A model generated the notes under the pieces. That model saw nothing but the letters and a program-made list of their open reading frames with translations. It made no database searches and was not told the DNA's origin. Of a stretch of 64,000 nucleotides of DNA, positions 2,270 through 31,106 are shown in pieces (position 1 is the stretch's first letter; each line of letters begins with the position of its first letter). The stretch covers positions 3,235,899 to 3,299,898 of the forward strand of contig NZ_CP059888.1 of the NCBI RefSeq assembly GCF_016469335.1, in the 5' to 3' direction. Source of the stretch: Flocculibacter collagenilyticus. Lineage in GTDB: Bacteria > Pseudomonadota > Gammaproteobacteria > Enterobacterales > Alteromonadaceae. A program made the position numbers and the translations under genes.

Positions 2270-2734
2270 TTATAAGAATGAACGAGGTGGGCCGCGAAGG
2301 TAGTAAAGCGTGATTAATAGCGATGGAAAGTCAGTATCGAGCCGATTATTCAGCACGTCACTCATTTGGCTTATTTCAAAATTGAATAAACCGACACTGT
2401 TAATTCCAGTGTCCAAAAGATGAGAATACAAACACAGTAAGCAGTCTGCATAGGATATTGGCGTTGACTCTTCATTACCAATGTCAGTTGCGTGAACGGC
2501 TTGCTTTACCTTTTCAGTGCCTTCTACATCTGTAATGGCACTAGCTACTATGCTATTACCAGTTGAGTGAAGGCCATGCTGGGTTTGTATTACCGAGTGG
2601 TTAAAGGAAGTAAGCGAATAATGCGTGAGATCATGGTTAACGAAAGCAATGATCGCAAGCATTAAAGTGCAAGATAACCAATGGTTAAATTTACTGCTGC
2701 GCTTGTGCATTGTAAGGGTCTGTTGACCTTTCAT
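2270..2734 (-). CDS. hypothetical protein (His-containing, no recognisable family)
   Basis: 154-aa ORF in track, upstream (same strand) of the TonB receptor; no motif recognised. Confidence 0.3.
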   Translation of the reverse strand: MKGQQTLTMHKRSSKFNHWLSCTLMLAIIAFVNHDLTHYSLTSFNHSVIQTQHGLHSTGNSIVASAITDVEGTEKVKQAVHATDIGNEESTPISYADCLLCLYSHLLDTGINSVGLFNFEISQMSDVLNNRLDTDFPSLLITLYYLRGPPRSFL

Positions 2735-2779
2735 TTTCGTCTCTATTATTTGCTCATTTTTTTACAACTGCAATCATAT

Positions 2780-22108: not shown

Positions 22109-23439
22109 ATATGATAAAAGCTGACGCATACAGGCTAGACATAAAATACGCTGATCAAGTGATCGGAAATTTATCTTTAGATAGTACGACCAACTTATTA
22201 AAACTTAGTTATTCACCGCAGTGGCAAAACGAAGGTTTTGCTATCTCACCCCATTTATCACTGGATAATCAACACTCGCCAGAAGTCGCATATAACTTTC
22301 TGGATAATGCCTTACCTGAGGGTGAAGCGAGAAAGTTATTAGCTGAAAATCTGGGAGTCTCGGAGAAAAATGTTTATTCACAAGTCCGTGCCATTGGAAA
22401 TGACTTAGCCGGGGCTATGACATTTTTACCGTCATCAGAAGAAGATCAAAACCAGCCATCTTTTAGAATACTTGAAGAAGAAGAGTTAATTACAAGGCTC
22501 GACAATAAAGAACAGTTTGGCCTACTCACATGGGACGATAAGCCACGTCTCAGCGTGGCCGGAGTTCAAGATAAATTAAATGTCTTTATTAATGAACAAG
22601 GAAATATCGGCTTTGGTGATGGCTCTCTCTGCTCTACCCATATTTTAAAATTTGAAAAGAAAAACTGCCCTAACCTCGTCTTGAACGAATTCTTTTGTAT
22701 GAAGCTCTCTAGTGCGATTGGATTGCCAACTGCTGATGTTGAGTATAGACAATTTGGACCACATCCATCGCTCATCGTAAAACGATTTGATCGCAAATAT
22801 GTTGCCGACTCCAACAAAGTAATGAGACGCCATGTTATCGATGGCTGCCAAGCGTTGAATTTACCAAGGGACTATAAATACGAGAGAAACTTAGGTGACG
22901 GAAGAGATGTTCAACATATTAGAGATGGAGCTAGCTTAGTAAAGCTATTTGAATTCACTGAACATATGTCTTCGCCAATTGAAAGTAAGCAATGGCTTAT
23001 AAACTGGCAACTCTTTAATTTAATGATCAGCAATTATGACAGCCACGGCAAAAACGTTTCACTATTCTTTGATAGAATTAACGCACGATTCACTCCCGCC
23101 TATGATTTAGTAAACATCGCCATGTTCCCTCAATTTAAGCATGTACTAGCGATGGCTATGGGAGATGAGTTTGAACCCAATGATATTCACGCTTATCAAC
23201 TAGCTGATTTCGCAGAAACCTGTGGCATAGATAAAAAACTATTATCTAGGTTGTTAACTGACATGGCAAATATAGTGATAAAACAACTTTCAACAGGAGC
23301 CTTGATTGAAAGTTTGAAAACTCAATCTCGCTTTTCTGATGCCGATGTTGGTCATTTTAAGCAACTGAATGACAACATATTAACAAGAACTGAGCACTTA
23401 AAAGCTCAAGCAGTTGAATTACCTTATATAGAAATATAG
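22099..23439 (+). CDS. hipA: HipA-family Ser/Thr kinase toxin
   Basis: 446 aa; RLSVAGVQDK (compare E. coli RISVAGAQEK) and catalytic NYDSHGKNVSLFF (compare DGHAKNFS). Confidence 0.85.
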   Translation: MGLDMIKADAYRLDIKYADQVIGNLSLDSTTNLLKLSYSPQWQNEGFAISPHLSLDNQHSPEVAYNFLDNALPEGEARKLLAENLGVSEKNVYSQVRAIGNDLAGAMTFLPSSEEDQNQPSFRILEEEELITRLDNKEQFGLLTWDDKPRLSVAGVQDKLNVFINEQGNIGFGDGSLCSTHILKFEKKNCPNLVLNEFFCMKLSSAIGLPTADVEYRQFGPHPSLIVKRFDRKYVADSNKVMRRHVIDGCQALNLPRDYKYERNLGDGRDVQHIRDGASLVKLFEFTEHMSSPIESKQWLINWQLFNLMISNYDSHGKNVSLFFDRINARFTPAYDLVNIAMFPQFKHVLAMAMGDEFEPNDIHAYQLADFAETCGIDKKLLSRLLTDMANIVIKQLSTGALIESLKTQSRFSDADVGHFKQLNDNILTRTEHLKAQAVELPYIEI

Positions 23440-23466
23440 ATACAAAATTAATTAATCATTTCACTT

Positions 23467-23731
23467 AGGGCGTGTTGACCTTTCGAGGTCGAATTTTGTT
23501 CAATCTAAACGTTTTTTGATCGCGGCGTGACAAGTGTAGCTTGGTTATTCCAAGTGAGCGCGTCACAACAAAGAGCAAGAAACGTTTAGATGAACCCAAA
23601 GGCAGCGCTTGTTTGTCATTTATACTGCGTTATCGCATGTGCGTGTGGAATAACCACACTTTACATGCTCTGCCTTGTCTTAATGACAAACAAACTGCTG
23701 CAAAAGTGAACTCGAAAGGTCAACACACCCT
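23467..23731. repeat. nested inverted-repeat element (MITE-like or structured RNA); 21-bp terminal inverted repeats with 20/21 match
   Basis: agggcgtgttgacctttcgag (23467-23487) vs ctcgaaaggtcaacacaccct (23711-23731); inner IRs ttgtttgtcatt / aatgacaaacaa and gtgtgg-aataa-ccacac. Confidence 0.5.
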
Positions 23732-23859
23732 AATTAAATCGGTTTTTACGGTTTACTCAGTCCACACTGTGGAATCTGTTCTTGGCGATTTAATGGAATG
23801 AAATTACTTCTTGATAAAGTATAAAGACAAATAAATATTGAATATAGATAAGATATTGA

Positions 23860-24420
23860 TTGTCTATAGGTCATAGTTTACACAATATTAGCTGGTTTAA
23901 GAATTTAGCTACTTTCACTCTACGAAAGAGTGAACTTTTGACAGACTTTGAAAATTACATTAACAGTAATGTAGCTTTTACCGACAAACGTCTTTTTGAT
24001 TTATTTCTGCTTATCAATGAGCAAGCAGACGTAATTTATAAGAAGCTGGGGATTGATTTTCCGGTTTCATGTTCGCCGACCGTGTTATCTCTGTCAGTAA
24101 AGGAAAATAGTACAGTAACTGACATCGCCAAAGCGTTGGGGTTATCCCACCAGCTCATTGCTCAGCGCCTAAAGAGTTTGTTGAAGCTTAAGCTAATTGA
24201 AAAGCAACCTTCGAATCAGGATAAACGAAAAATACTATACCGTCTTTCACAAAAAGGACTAGAGCAAGCATTAAAGCTCGATAAATATTGTGAGGGTGCG
24301 GAAAAAGCGTTCATTGATTTATTAAAAGAAGTCGGCGTTGACTTGCAGGGAACCGTCAATACAACCATTTCCGCGTTAAAGCATATACCTTTTCATGAGC
24401 GCTACGAACACGATGAATAG
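23860..24420 (+). CDS. MarR-type winged-helix transcriptional regulator
   Basis: TVTDIAKALGLSHQLIAQRLKSL...DKRKILYRLSQKG recognition-helix/wing pattern. Confidence 0.55.
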   Translation: MSIGHSLHNISWFKNLATFTLRKSELLTDFENYINSNVAFTDKRLFDLFLLINEQADVIYKKLGIDFPVSCSPTVLSLSVKENSTVTDIAKALGLSHQLIAQRLKSLLKLKLIEKQPSNQDKRKILYRLSQKGLEQALKLDKYCEGAEKAFIDLLKEVGVDLQGTVNTTISALKHIPFHERYEHDE

Positions 24421-29179: not shown

Positions 29180-30784
29180 TTAGGAAGATAAATCACGCCA
29201 TTTAAGCCCAAATTTACCTAAGTATTTCTGTAGTCTGCTTGAGTCATTAGGTTGCGACTTCATCGTTCTACTCACATTGAATAGCTCCCTGCCCGCCGAT
29301 GCCATACTGTTATGGTGTTCACATACCCCGAGTACAAAACTAAGCTGGTTCGCGTCAAAGTGATCTAACTGAGCAATCGCTTCTGGCGATAGGTAGTTAG
29401 CTAAGCTCGTTGCTGTTGATGGCTGCTCTGTGTCAAACCAAGCTACATTCAGCCGCTCAATTTCATCTGTTACATCAACCGCTGTAATTCTAGAAGAGTC
29501 AGCCAGGGTGCAAAGGCGCGTAATGGCTGAACTTAAATCACGAAAATTACTGGTCCATAACGCCTTATTAGACGTTGCAAAATCTACAAAGGCTAGCTTT
29601 GCTTCTTTGTTAAATTGCACTCGCTGCCCTGTGATTTGGGCATAACGATCCAGCTCATAATCAATGTTGGCAGGAATATCTTCTTTTCTGTCTTTTAGTG
29701 CTGGTAAGTCATACGCCCATAAATTTATTCTGGCGAGTAAGTCTTCCCGAAAGGCGCCCTTCTTAACTTCTTGTTTTAAATTACGATTCGTACCTGCAAT
29801 TAACTGAAAATTGCTCTTTACTGGTGTATCACTGCCAACGGGATGAAATGTTTTATTTTCAATAGCATGCAGAAGCATCGCTTGCTCTTCCAAACCTAGC
29901 TCACCAATTTCATCTAGAAATAACACGCCATTATTCGCGGTGAGTAAAAAGCCTTCTCGCGCACTTTGAGCGCCAGTAAAGGCACCTTTAGTGTGACCAA
30001 ATAATGCCGCCATCGCATTTTCGCCCTTTAACGTGGCGCAGTTTACCGACACCAAATCGCCTTTAAGCATTGCACGCTTTTTCTTAAGTTGAAAAATACG
30101 CGTAGCAAGTTGGCTTTTTCCAGCTCCTGTAGGCCCTGTTAGTAACATAGGATCATGAGAGCGAATAGCCACTTTTTCTATTTGAGTAATTAAACGATTA
30201 AACGCTACATTCTTGGTTTTAATCCCACCTTTTAAAAACGCTTTGCCTTCAAGATGCTCCCGATCAAACCGGGTGGCGAGCTGATCATATTTAGACAAAT
30301 CCAAATCAATAATTTGAATACGGCCAATTGACTTATTTTTACTATCTTTGTCGGGCGACGTTTGAATGAGTCGCCCCGGAAAATGGCGGCTTTCAGTGAG
30401 TAGATAACTACATATTTGAACAACATGAGTACCTGTGGTGATATGAAACAAATAATCATATTTATCTGTATCAAACGTTTGCTGCTGACACCAATCAAAT
30501 AGCTTGGCGTATACTTCCTCAAAATCCCATGGATCATTAAAGTTAACCAAATGAAGTACTACGTTAGTTTCAGGAGATACCGATTCAATATCTACGGCAA
30601 CATTGTTCGCAAGGCGGTTGCTGTGATTGTCATGCAGCATGTGAAGTTGATCGATAATTAAATCTTCCTGACTACATAAACTGACATTGGGCCGCCACCT
30701 CGCCCATCTATCCACTCTTTTCCCAACATAATCTAATTGTGTTCCAATTAAACTGACAGCAACCGTTTTCTTTTTCAAATTCAA
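29180..30784 (-). CDS. rtcR: sigma54-dependent transcriptional activator RtcR (CARF-like N-domain + AAA+ + HTH)
   Basis: 534 aa; collinear with E. coli RtcR (VAFGFVGT..LDY, PWDFEEVYA, LLTGPTGAGKS, GAFTGA sigma54-contact motif). Confidence 0.9.
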   Translation of the reverse strand: MNLKKKTVAVSLIGTQLDYVGKRVDRWARWRPNVSLCSQEDLIIDQLHMLHDNHSNRLANNVAVDIESVSPETNVVLHLVNFNDPWDFEEVYAKLFDWCQQQTFDTDKYDYLFHITTGTHVVQICSYLLTESRHFPGRLIQTSPDKDSKNKSIGRIQIIDLDLSKYDQLATRFDREHLEGKAFLKGGIKTKNVAFNRLITQIEKVAIRSHDPMLLTGPTGAGKSQLATRIFQLKKKRAMLKGDLVSVNCATLKGENAMAALFGHTKGAFTGAQSAREGFLLTANNGVLFLDEIGELGLEEQAMLLHAIENKTFHPVGSDTPVKSNFQLIAGTNRNLKQEVKKGAFREDLLARINLWAYDLPALKDRKEDIPANIDYELDRYAQITGQRVQFNKEAKLAFVDFATSNKALWTSNFRDLSSAITRLCTLADSSRITAVDVTDEIERLNVAWFDTEQPSTATSLANYLSPEAIAQLDHFDANQLSFVLGVCEHHNSMASAGRELFNVSRTMKSQPNDSSRLQKYLGKFGLKWRDLSS

Positions 30785-30929
30785 TATCCAAATAGATACA
30801 TTTAATATCCAAAATAATATATACGTTAGTTACACATTACAACACGGCCTGCACTAAAAACAGCACAAATAAAAATATAAATCAATAAAACAATTAGTTA
30901 TGAATTATTTTTAACTACTTAAACACCTT

Positions 30930-30945
30930 TGGCACGTGACTTGTA
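30930..30945 (+). promoter_or_regulatory. candidate sigma54 (-24/-12) promoter: TGGCAC-N5-TTGT
   Basis: tttGGcacgtgacTTGTa; -24 GG is perfect, -12 is TTGT instead of TTGC. Divergent from rtcR, about 90 bp upstream of the tRNA-like element. Confidence 0.4.
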
Positions 30946-31034
30946 ATTACATAGGTACTTGATTATTTAGCTGTGATTAAAATATCACGCTGGTGCACTA
31001 AGCAATGCGAATGTGTATGCCTAATCAAGTAACC

Positions 31035-31106
31035 ATTTAAGTAGCTCAATTGGCAGAGCATCGAACTTTCATTCGATTGTTGTGGGTTCAAGTCCCACCT
31101 TAATAA
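31035..31106 (+). ncRNA. tRNA-like element (tRNA mimic or pseudo-tRNA) in the rtc operon leader
   Basis: Hand fold: canonical D-arm (U8 A9 GCUC AAUUGGCA GAGC), canonical T-arm (GUGGG UUCAAGU CCCAC); 5-bp anticodon-like stem with a 6-nt loop (cuuuca); acceptor-like stem 5/7 paired; no CCA. Confidence 0.5.

What the first reader, a model, noticed from the sequence alone, without database searches (positions are those of the whole stretch)
23440..23860. Nested inverted-repeat element carrying a degenerate, interrupted copy of the rtcA 3' end located 11.5 kb upstream of rtcA
19 nt (ttgttcaatctaaacgttt, 23496-23514) and 15 nt (aacgtttagatgaac, 23581-23595) are identical to the stop-codon region of rtcA (35046-35072). 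The flanks are weakly similar for another approx 30 nt. In the upstream copy the two pieces are separated by a 66-bp insertion flanked by a 7-8-bp direct repeat (aaacgttt), which looks like a target-site duplication. The same region contains a 21-bp perfect or near-perfect terminal inverted repeat pair (23467-23487 / 23711-23731) with inner IRs; it is MITE-like or a large structured RNA. Possible interpretations: an old att-like junction or segmental duplication marking how the block between hipBA and rtcA was assembled; a MITE; or a cis-RNA. The 86-aa ORF 23541-23801 inside it is probably not real.
Basis: seen in the sequence. Interest (0 to 1): 0.6.

Follow-up and report, generated by a model that had tools for sequence, protein, structure and literature searches.

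The report
Ordinary MITE plus its decayed fragment
The inverted-repeat element between hipA and a marR-like gene is a complete 263-bp copy of a small non-coding transposon family found in many marine Gammaproteobacteria, and the matching bases at the end of rtcA are a decayed fragment of a second copy that gave RtcA a new 12-residue tail.

Summary

- It has 20-bp terminal inverted repeats (GGGCGTGTTGACCTTTCGAG) and TA on both sides.
- An exact-match scan found the repeat at 45 loci in Vibrio, Shewanella, Colwellia, Pseudoalteromonas, Thalassotalea, Photobacterium, Psychromonas and Rheinheimera.
- 36 of those loci hold full copies, most commonly 264 bp. Up to 16 copies occur on one Pseudoalteromonas chromid.
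- A family profile built without the window copy matches it end to end (E = 7.8e-63). The supposed 66-bp insertion with an 8-bp target duplication is therefore the normal tip of hairpin arm A.
- AAACGTTT is self-complementary, so the two stem halves also read as a direct repeat.

**The rtcA match.** The similarity extends without gaps to 39 of 50 bases and begins exactly at TTAGG, the element's left terminus.
- Fifteen RtcA homologues lack the 12-residue tail encoded there.
- Deleting 35018-35083 restores a 347-residue RtcA whose TGA overlaps the rlaP ATG.
- So rtcA carries a decayed, internally deleted fragment of the element, not the reverse.

**Structure and open points.** The arms show strong compensatory covariation while the terminal repeats are invariant. 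I found no transposase partner and no clean empty site. This looks like an apparently unnamed family of a well-known kind, so interest is low to moderate.

The parts
23466..23467 (.). Left flanking TA, the presumed 2-bp target-site duplication.
   Evidence: TA lies on both sides in 29 of 37 copies. Position -3 is C or T in 35 of 37 copies.
23468..23730 (+). Complete 263-bp MITE, written with arm A first.
   Evidence: A family profile built without this copy aligns positions 1-268 of 268 to 23466-23732, E = 7.8e-63. Other full copies are most commonly 264 bp.
23468..23487 (+). Left terminal inverted repeat, GGGCGTGTTGACCTTTCGAG.
   Evidence: Exact matches at 45 loci across eight genera. The columns are nearly invariant. 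It contains a small GACCU-UUCG-AGGUC hairpin followed by a T-run, flagged as terminator-like.
23494..23600 (+).
   Evidence: Fold. In helices 4-6, 17 of 20 pairs show compensatory changes. Inverted repeat I2.
23602..23705 (+). Hairpin arm B, with internal-loop motifs whose sequence is conserved.
   Evidence: Fold. In helices 7-8, 9 of 18 pairs show compensatory changes. Nearly invariant motifs TTTCTACTGCGTTATC and CTGCCTTGTATAAA.
23711..23730 (-). Right terminal inverted repeat. Its reverse complement is GGGTGTGTTGACCTTTCGAG.
23731..23732 (.). Right flanking TA.
35018..35081 (+). Decayed, internally deleted fragment of a second element copy. It holds the left terminal repeat, the collapsed arm-A stem and possibly the start of the junction. 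TA flanks it at 35016-35017 and 35082-35083. The right boundary is uncertain.
   Evidence: Gap-free identity of 39 of 50 bases between 35015-35064 and 23465-23514, starting at TTAGG. The flank match ranks in the top 4 of 128,000 positions. With the family profile alone the hit is weak, E = 8.7.
35020..35058 (+). The rtcA codons for the tail TSRPFNTEPCSI plus the stop codon, all encoded by the fragment.
   Evidence: The tail is absent from 15 homologues of 343-349 aa. Removing 35018-35083 gives ...IDIKRKI* with TGA overlapping the rlaP ATG at 35094.
2713..2743 (+). Possible third trace of the family: a solitary terminal-repeat-like sequence, TAAGGGTCTGTTGACCTTTCA.
   Evidence: 21 of 31 matches to the left end, the best non-self hit in the window. 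The profile E-value is only 7.5, so this is tentative.

Best explanation
**What the element is.** Window 23468-23730 is a non-autonomous DNA transposon (MITE) of a family spread through marine Gammaproteobacteria.
- It consists of two 20-bp terminal inverted repeats enclosing two long hairpin arms. A single strand would fold into a three-way junction.
- It encodes no protein.

**How it most likely moves (inferred).** A DDE transposase supplied in trans recognises the invariant terminal repeats and inserts the element at TA, with a preference for YTAR, duplicating the TA. This is the behaviour of the IS630/Tc1-mariner type.

**What happened at rtcA (inferred from sequence).**
- A second copy once landed at a TA a few codons before the original rtcA stop.
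- That original stop probably overlapped the rlaP start as ATGA.
- Translation then ran into the element, giving RtcA a new tail.
- The copy later lost its arm-A tip, plausibly by slippage between the two self-complementary AAACGTTT repeats. It also lost arm B and the right end, and its terminal repeat decayed.

**What is shown.** Family membership, the terminal repeats, the TA flanks, multiple copies in other genomes, presence/absence polymorphism, stem covariation, and the unique RtcA tail.
For: **Family membership.**
- 45 loci hold the exact terminal repeat.
- 36 full copies of about 264 bp share the same architecture.
- A profile built without the window copy hits the window end to end, E = 7.8e-63.

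**Copy number elsewhere.** 8 loci in one Colwellia genome, 6 in Shewanella waksmanii HQB-86 and 5 in Vibrio hepatarius. Up to 16 places on one Pseudoalteromonas chromid, none of them annotated.

**Target site.** TA lies on both sides in 29 of 37 copies. Position -3 is Y in 35 of 37 and +3 is R in 33 of 37. These two positions are not complementary within a copy, so they belong to the flank and not to the repeat.

**Mobility.**
- The element is absent upstream of the orthologous GNAT gene in V. crassostreae and other Vibrio.
- It is absent downstream of menA in a related Shewanella that keeps the same gene order.

**Structure.**
- z is about -11 on both strands.
- 96.2% of cells are paired, against 86.2% in shuffles and 38-46% in slid controls.
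- 27 of 56 pairs show compensatory changes.

**The rtcA fragment.**
- 39 of 50 bases match without gaps, starting at the element terminus.
- The flank match stands at z of about 5.
- The tail is missing in 15 homologues.
- In Alteromonas the rtcA-rlaP spacer is 19 nt, against 74 nt here measured from the native end.
- In-silico excision restores a 347-aa RtcA with an ATGA overlap.

**Precedent.** Small mobile repeats fused to 3' gene ends that replace the stop codon are described in PMC2759123.
Against: - I identified no autonomous partner. None lies in the held loci and none in the viral contigs.
- I obtained no clean empty site, so TA as a duplication rather than as part of the repeat remains an inference.
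- Copy number in the source genome, Flocculibacter collagenilyticus, is unknown. The window shows only one intact copy and one or two fragments.
- The family profile alone does not detect the rtcA fragment significantly (E = 8.7). The case rests on similarity to the resident copy.
- The right boundary of the fragment is uncertain, so the excision reconstruction could be partly coincidental.
- Strong compensatory covariation together with conserved internal loops is more than a passively decaying MITE needs.
Confidence: 0.82

Rival explanations
1. The element is primarily a mobile structured non-coding RNA gene. On this reading the three-way junction with covarying arms and conserved internal loops is selected for an RNA-level function, such as regulation, termination or mRNA stabilisation, or guiding or controlling its transposase. 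The terminal repeats would serve only as its vehicle.
For: - Covariation far exceeds both controls.
- Internal-loop motifs are nearly invariant across genera.
- UUCG-type tetraloop hairpins occur at the junction and inside the terminal repeat, followed by T-runs.
- G-U pairs outnumber A-C pairs 43 to 19 on the arm-A-first strand.
- Copies often sit just after gene ends.
Against: - No Rfam family matches, even at E up to 10.
- There is no orientation bias relative to flanking genes: ++ 9, -- 8, +- 7, -+ 3.
- Both strands fold equally well.
- The G-U excess is dominated by related copies at a few pairs.
- I found no promoter within the element.
- Hairpin stems in other MITEs also keep their pairing (established knowledge of ERIC and Correia elements).
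Confidence: 0.1
2. The two similar sites would be att-like junctions or a segmental-duplication scar marking how the 23.5-35 kb block was assembled. The upstream copy would be an rtcA 3' end interrupted by a 66-bp insertion.
For: Two direct, collinear identities of 19 and 16 nt lie 11.5 kb apart. An 8-nt repeat flanks the extra 66 bp.
Against: - The upstream sequence aligns end to end with a family profile built from other genera, with no extra insertion.
- AAACGTTT is self-complementary and forms the stem.
- The block holds moaBCE, moeAB and rtcR and no integrase or recombinase.
- GC content is flat across the block.
- RtcA homologues lack the shared tail.
Confidence: 0.03
3. The rtcA-end palindrome is an independent functional hairpin, for example a terminator, a processing site or a protein-binding site between rtcA and rlaP. 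Its resemblance to arm A would then be coincidence or convergence.
For: It is a near-perfect palindrome sitting on the stop codon just upstream of the rlaP ribosome-binding site.
Against: - Similarity continues for 31 nt to the left of the palindrome, into the terminal-repeat sequence and in register.
- The fold of this region is unremarkable, with z = -0.35.
- The Alteromonas and metagenomic rtcA-rlaP junctions have no such palindrome.
- The only other TCTAAACGTTTAGA-like site in the window has 2 mismatches, which is the chance level.
Confidence: 0.05

Closest known systems
RUP, the repeat unit of pneumococcus. It is a 107-bp MITE thought to be mobilised by IS630-Spn1 (from my own knowledge: Oggioni and Claverys 1999).
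   Same: It is non-coding, has terminal inverted repeats, shows TA target duplication, occurs in many intergenic copies and depends on a transposase supplied in trans.
   Different: There is no sequence similarity. RUP is less than half the length and is restricted to Streptococcus. Its parent insertion sequence is known. For the present family no parent was found, and the two long covarying arms are distinctive.
Correia elements (CREE) of Neisseria (from my own knowledge, and the review PMC10969869).
   Same: They have terminal inverted repeats of about 26 bp, TA duplication, no known autonomous parent and a frequent position next to gene ends. They are reported to affect transcription, termination and mRNA processing.
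   Different: Correia elements are 100-155 bp, carry an IHF site and are confined to Neisseria. The present element is 264 bp, forms a three-way junction and spans at least eight genera in several gammaproteobacterial orders.
ERIC, also called IRU or RU-1, together with RU-2 and RU-3 of Enterobacteriaceae and Vibrionaceae (PMC2759123).
   Same: They form stable stem-loops, have TA at the termini and TA duplication. Copies fused to the 3' ends of genes remove the normal stop codon and add a new C-terminal peptide, exactly as seen at rtcA.
   Different: The termini differ in sequence (ERIC sequence recalled from memory, not tested here). ERIC elements are shorter, at 103-168 bp, and have a different host range.

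Membership tests
MITE (non-autonomous element with terminal inverted repeats) | Short length and no transposase gene. | tested here: met
   The element is 263 bp. Its only ORFs of 39-86 aa have no Pfam match and are absent from the protein collection.
MITE (non-autonomous element with terminal inverted repeats) | Terminal inverted repeats conserved across copies. | tested here: met
   The 20-bp repeats are nearly invariant in 37 copies.
MITE (non-autonomous element with terminal inverted repeats) | Multiple dispersed copies per genome. | tested here: met
   8 loci in Colwellia sp. and 6 in S. waksmanii HQB-86. Up to 16 places on one Pseudoalteromonas chromid. For the source genome itself this could not be tested, because only the 64-kb window was available.
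MITE (non-autonomous element with terminal inverted repeats) | Presence/absence polymorphism at orthologous sites. | tested here: met
   The element is absent upstream of the GNAT gene in related Vibrio and downstream of menA in a related Shewanella.
MITE (non-autonomous element with terminal inverted repeats) | Target-site duplication demonstrated against an empty site. | tested here: inconclusive
   TA flanks both sides in 29 of 37 copies, within a YTAR context. In-silico excision at rtcA fits a TA duplication. The orthologous empty sites I found were too diverged or rearranged to read the junction.
IS630/Tc1-mariner-derived MITE | Strict TA target and TA duplication. | tested here: inconclusive
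   The flanks fit this pattern. Models with 3-bp or 4-bp duplications do not fit the flanks. No empty site confirms it.
IS630/Tc1-mariner-derived MITE | Termini shared with an IS630-family insertion sequence in the same hosts. | not tested
   No pair of terminal repeats enclosing 0.35-6 kb with a transposase was found in about 400 kb of held loci. There were no viral hits. A proper search needs ISfinder or whole genomes.
Described structured RNA family (Rfam 15) | A covariance-model match. | tested here: not met
   Nothing reached a gathering score anywhere in the window except a tRNA at 31035-31105. At E up to 10 there were only noise hits of 11-14 bits.
Integrative-element att junction or segmental duplication | Direct repeats bounding a block that carries an integrase or foreign cargo, or a duplicated gene end. 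| tested here: not met
   The block encodes a marR-like gene, a methyltransferase, moeA, moaE, moaC, moaB, moeB, rtcR, an SPFH protein, rtcB and rtcA, with no recombinase. GC content is flat. The upstream repeat is a complete MITE.
REP/REPIN (mobilised by RAYT) or IS200/IS605-type palindromic elements | Short GC-rich palindromes or subterminal hairpins, with no terminal inverted repeats and no target duplication. | tested here: not met
   The element has perfect 20-bp terminal inverted repeats and TA flanks. The definitions of these families come from established knowledge.

The most novel reading that the evidence does not exclude
The family may be more than a selfish MITE. It could be a horizontally mobile structured RNA or single-stranded-DNA module. 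On this reading the covarying three-way junction and the sequence-invariant internal loops are maintained by selection for a function, such as a bidirectional terminator or mRNA-stabilising cassette, or an RNA that partners with its transposase. That would be a large undescribed structured nucleic-acid class spanning several gammaproteobacterial orders.
Probability: 0.1. Interest if true: 0.6.

Novelty: new member of a known kind. Interest (0 to 1): 0.27.

Why it matters
- **Annotation.** It resolves an odd-looking repeat as ordinary mobile DNA and corrects the direction of descent. The RtcA of Flocculibacter collagenilyticus carries a transposon-derived 12-residue tail, and the translational coupling between rtcA and rlaP was probably broken by the insertion.
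- **Mobile DNA.** The family is widespread across at least eight genera, is unannotated in every record I inspected, and has no Rfam match or text match in the paper library I searched. Its stem covariation is unusually clean. This makes it a useful case for asking why MITE hairpins are conserved, and for finding the IS630-like transposase that moves it.
- **Genome rearrangement.** Copies coincide with synteny breakpoints in Pseudoalteromonas and Vibrio, so the family probably contributes to genome rearrangement.

Tried and rejected
**Locating the source genome.**
- Looking up HipA with two alternative start codons found no exact record.
- RtcA later identified the organism, but the whole genome could not be scanned, so its copy number is unknown.

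**Empty-site hunts.**
- Three plasmid/chromid comparisons gave either shared insertions or rearranged flanks.
- Two protein-anchored look-ups proved absence at orthologous loci, but the junction sequences could not be read.

**Searches for further copies or a partner.**
- A literature search by sequence strings and by keywords found no description of this family. Romine et al. 2008 on Shewanella MITEs is not held.
- The viral-contig scan returned zero hits.
- The metagenome scan with the lineage-specific 19-mer returned 6 hits, all chance matches in unrelated contexts.
- Looking up ORFs inside the element, in the hope of reaching paralogous copies, found none on record.

**Readings I considered and rejected.**
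- The right end of the rtcA fragment could be a decayed right terminal repeat, but only 7 of 22 bases match (hand comparison of the sequences read).
- I checked for an IHF site and for an outward promoter in arm B, and found no consistent motif (read by eye from the alignment).
- The 21-nt direct repeat at 23433 and 23841 is at the level expected by chance in AT-rich DNA.
- An integron attC site, a retron, and REP or IS200-type elements were each rejected on architecture.

Full report
**1. The observation**

- 23496-23514 equals 35046-35064 (19 nt).
- 23580-23595 equals 35057-35072 (16 nt).
- The rtcA stop codon TAA is at 35056-35058.
- The outer inverted repeat is 23465-23487 against 23711-23733, with 22 of 23 bases complementary.

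The region 23455-23745 folds at -123.5 kcal/mol on the + strand and -123.4 on the - strand. Shuffles give about -70 +/- 4.8, so z is about -11. The fold is a three-way junction made of an outer stem, arm A (23494-23600) and arm B (23602-23705).

**2. Context**

The window comes from Flocculibacter collagenilyticus. Its RtcA is 100% identical to that species' protein, and the next homologue is only 73% identical.

Gene order, from Pfam:
- yicC, hipB, hipA (ending at 23439)
- the element
- a marR-like gene, probably starting at TTG 23938 because its ORF has no ATG
- a methyltransferase, moeA, moaE, moaC, moaB, moeB
- rtcR on the minus strand
- a tRNA-like gene at 31035-31106
- an SPFH/Band-7 gene, rtcB, rtcA (33988-35058), rlaP (35094-35906), and further RNA-repair genes

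The block between the two repeats has no integrase and no GC anomaly.

**3. What the element is**

*Distribution.* An exact-match scan of one genome per species with GGGYGTGTTGACCTTTCGAG returned 45 loci. They come from Vibrio (many species), Shewanella, Colwellia, Pseudoalteromonas, Thalassotalea, Photobacterium, Psychromonas, Rheinheimera and an uncultured Alteromonadaceae genome. One Colwellia genome has 8 loci, S. waksmanii HQB-86 has 6 and V. hepatarius has 5.

*Architecture.* In 36 loci a second, inverted arm lies 244-295 bp away, most commonly 264 bp. The window copy is 263 bp. All copies share one layout: TA, terminal repeat, arm A, a small junction hairpin, arm B, terminal repeat, TA (alignment A1).

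*Other records.* BLAST against plasmid and chromid records finds further copies in Pseudoalteromonas (up to 16 places in one record), Vibrio and Catenovulum. None is annotated.

*Family membership of the window copy.* A profile HMM built from the 36 foreign copies alone matches window 23466-23732 over profile positions 1-268 of 268, with E = 7.8e-63. The window copy is therefore a complete, standard member. The '66-bp insertion' is simply the distal part of arm A, which every copy has.

*The apparent target duplication.* AAACGTTT is its own reverse complement. The two paired halves of the stem therefore also look like a direct repeat, and that created the impression of a target-site duplication.

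**4. Mobility and target**

- The two bases outside the repeats are TA on both sides in 29 of 37 copies.
- Position -3 is C or T in 35 of 37 copies, and +3 is A or G in 33 of 37.
- Within a copy these two positions are often not complementary, so they are flank (a YTAR target preference) and not part of the repeat.
- Duplications of 3 or 4 bp do not fit the flanks. A 2-bp TA duplication does.
- By established knowledge of insertion-sequence families, that is the signature of IS630/Tc1-mariner.

I could not read a clean empty site, but presence/absence is shown in two places.
- The copy next to a GNAT gene in V. splendidus 12E03 is missing from the orthologous region in V. crassostreae and other Vibrio. 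Homology resumes 0-3 nt from the element's end.
- The copy 3 nt after menA in S. waksmanii HQB-86 is missing in a related Shewanella with the same convergent gene pair.

I found no autonomous partner in the held loci or in the viral contigs.

**5. Structure**

- RNAalifold predicts 56 pairs, of which 27 show compensatory double changes.
- With controls, 96.2% of cells are paired, against 86.2% in column shuffles and 38-46% when partners are slid.
- The covariation score is 0.273, against 0.094 in shuffles and about 0.05 in slid controls. None of 500 shuffles reached the observed value.
- The terminal-repeat stems hardly vary, which fits recognition of their sequence by a protein. The arms vary freely but stay paired.
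- Some internal-loop motifs of arm B, and the TTTTGTTC...GAACCC base of arm A, are nearly invariant.
- There is no orientation bias relative to neighbouring genes: ++ 9, -- 8, +- 7, -+ 3.
- Both strands fold equally well.
- G-U pairs exceed A-C pairs 43 to 19 on the arm-A-first strand, but related copies dominate this count.
- No Rfam family matches.

I therefore treat an RNA function as an open minority reading.

**6. The rtcA end**

*Similarity.* The similarity is not limited to the two identical blocks. Window 35015-35064 aligns without gaps to 23465-23514 with 39 of 50 identities. It begins exactly at TTAGG, which is the TA plus the first bases of the terminal repeat.

*Significance.* The 31 nt covering the repeat match at 20 of 31 positions. 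That 31-mer averages 7.8 +/- 2.4 matches over all 128,000 positions of the window. Only the element itself, its own right arm and a site at 2713 score as high or higher.

*Lineage.* The shared arm-A bases (AATCTAAACGTTT and AAACGTTTAGAT) lie in the part of the stem that differs between genomes. The fragment therefore descends from this host's own lineage of the element.

*The protein tail.* Fifteen homologues of 343-349 aa end 5-9 residues after a conserved Trp. The window protein continues with TSRPFNTEPCSI, which none of them has. Those codons (35020-35055) lie inside the fragment.

*The junction.* In Alteromonas, rtcA and rlaP are 19 nt apart. Here the native end and the rlaP ATG are 74 nt apart. 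Removing 35018-35083, which is 66 nt bounded by TA on both sides, yields ...GAT ATT AAG AGG AAA ATA TGA. That encodes a 347-aa RtcA ending IDIKRKI*, with its TGA overlapping the rlaP ATG as ATGA.

*History I infer.* An element copy inserted at that TA. Translation then read into it. The copy later lost the arm-A tip, for which deletion between the two AAACGTTT repeats would give exactly TCTAAACGTTTAGA. It also lost arm B and the right end.

*Limits.*
- The right boundary of the fragment is uncertain.
- The family profile alone sees the fragment only at E = 8.7.
- The remaining hairpin is not unusually stable, with z = -0.35.
- The phenomenon has a direct precedent in ERIC/RU-1 fusions to 3' gene ends (PMC2759123).

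**7. Comparison with known elements, and verdict**

In kind this is a TA-targeting bacterial MITE like RUP, Correia and ERIC. It differs in sequence, in its length of 264 bp and in its two-arm junction.

I found no name or description for this family in Rfam, in the annotations of the records I inspected, or in the open literature I could search. That does not prove it is absent from ISfinder or from bulk MITE catalogues such as PMC11602168.

My verdict is as follows.
- This is a new member of a known kind, of low to moderate interest.

Noticed in passing
window 31035-31106 (+): A tRNA-like gene sits between the divergent rtcR and the SPFH-rtcB-rtcA-rlaP operon. It scores 51.1 bits against the Rfam tRNA model. 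ARAGORN calls a tRNA with an undetermined anticodon, and the acceptor stem is A/U-rich. It recalls the tRNA-like module of bacterial Y RNAs (YrlA) next to rtcBA in Salmonella (from my own knowledge), but no rsr (Ro) gene is present here.
   Followed up: partly
window 29180-38954: A large RNA-repair gene cluster. It holds rtcR, an SPFH/Band-7 gene, rtcB, rtcA, rlaP and a 384-aa ORF with no Pfam match (35812-36966). Convergent to these are an HD plus AAA_33 kinase-like gene (37040-38302) and an RNA ligase (38295-38954). One metagenomic homologue (P0084, 615 aa) fuses RtcA and RlaP, and another operon inserts a PolyA_pol/HD gene between them (L049).
   Followed up: partly
window 2713-2743: A solitary sequence resembling the terminal repeat, TAAGGGTCTGTTGACCTTTCA. 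It matches the element's left end at 21 of 31 positions, the best non-self match in the window. It overlaps the start of the ORF at 2270-2734 on the minus strand. It may be a third decayed trace of the family, but the profile E-value is only 7.5.
   Followed up: partly
L006, L007, L014, L029, L040 (alignment A1, columns 184-197): Several Vibrio copies carry the same extra 14-nt GC-rich palindromic block (GCGGGGGCGCCCAGCT) in the right half of arm A. L016, L029 and L032 carry other internal insertions. These look like small insertions nested inside the MITE.
   Followed up: no
L046 compared with NZ_CP133570.1; L041 compared with L052-L057: Synteny breaks coincide with element boundaries. Pseudoalteromonas Bsw20308 and HL-AS1 share the element and its right flank at 97% identity but differ immediately to its left. 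V. splendidus 12E03 has cox11-MITE-GNAT where relatives have methyltransferase-GNAT. This suggests recombination between copies.
   Followed up: partly
L023 5061-5210; L030; L012; L027; L044: Truncated family members. These include half elements with one terminal repeat plus one arm, and solitary terminal repeats that abut unrelated genes. Decay into fragments like the one at rtcA is therefore common.
   Followed up: partly
window 23860-24420: The marR-like ORF contains no ATG. The likely start is TTG at 23938, behind an AAGAG ribosome-binding site, which gives about 160 aa. The listed 186-aa ORF is probably too long.
   Followed up: no
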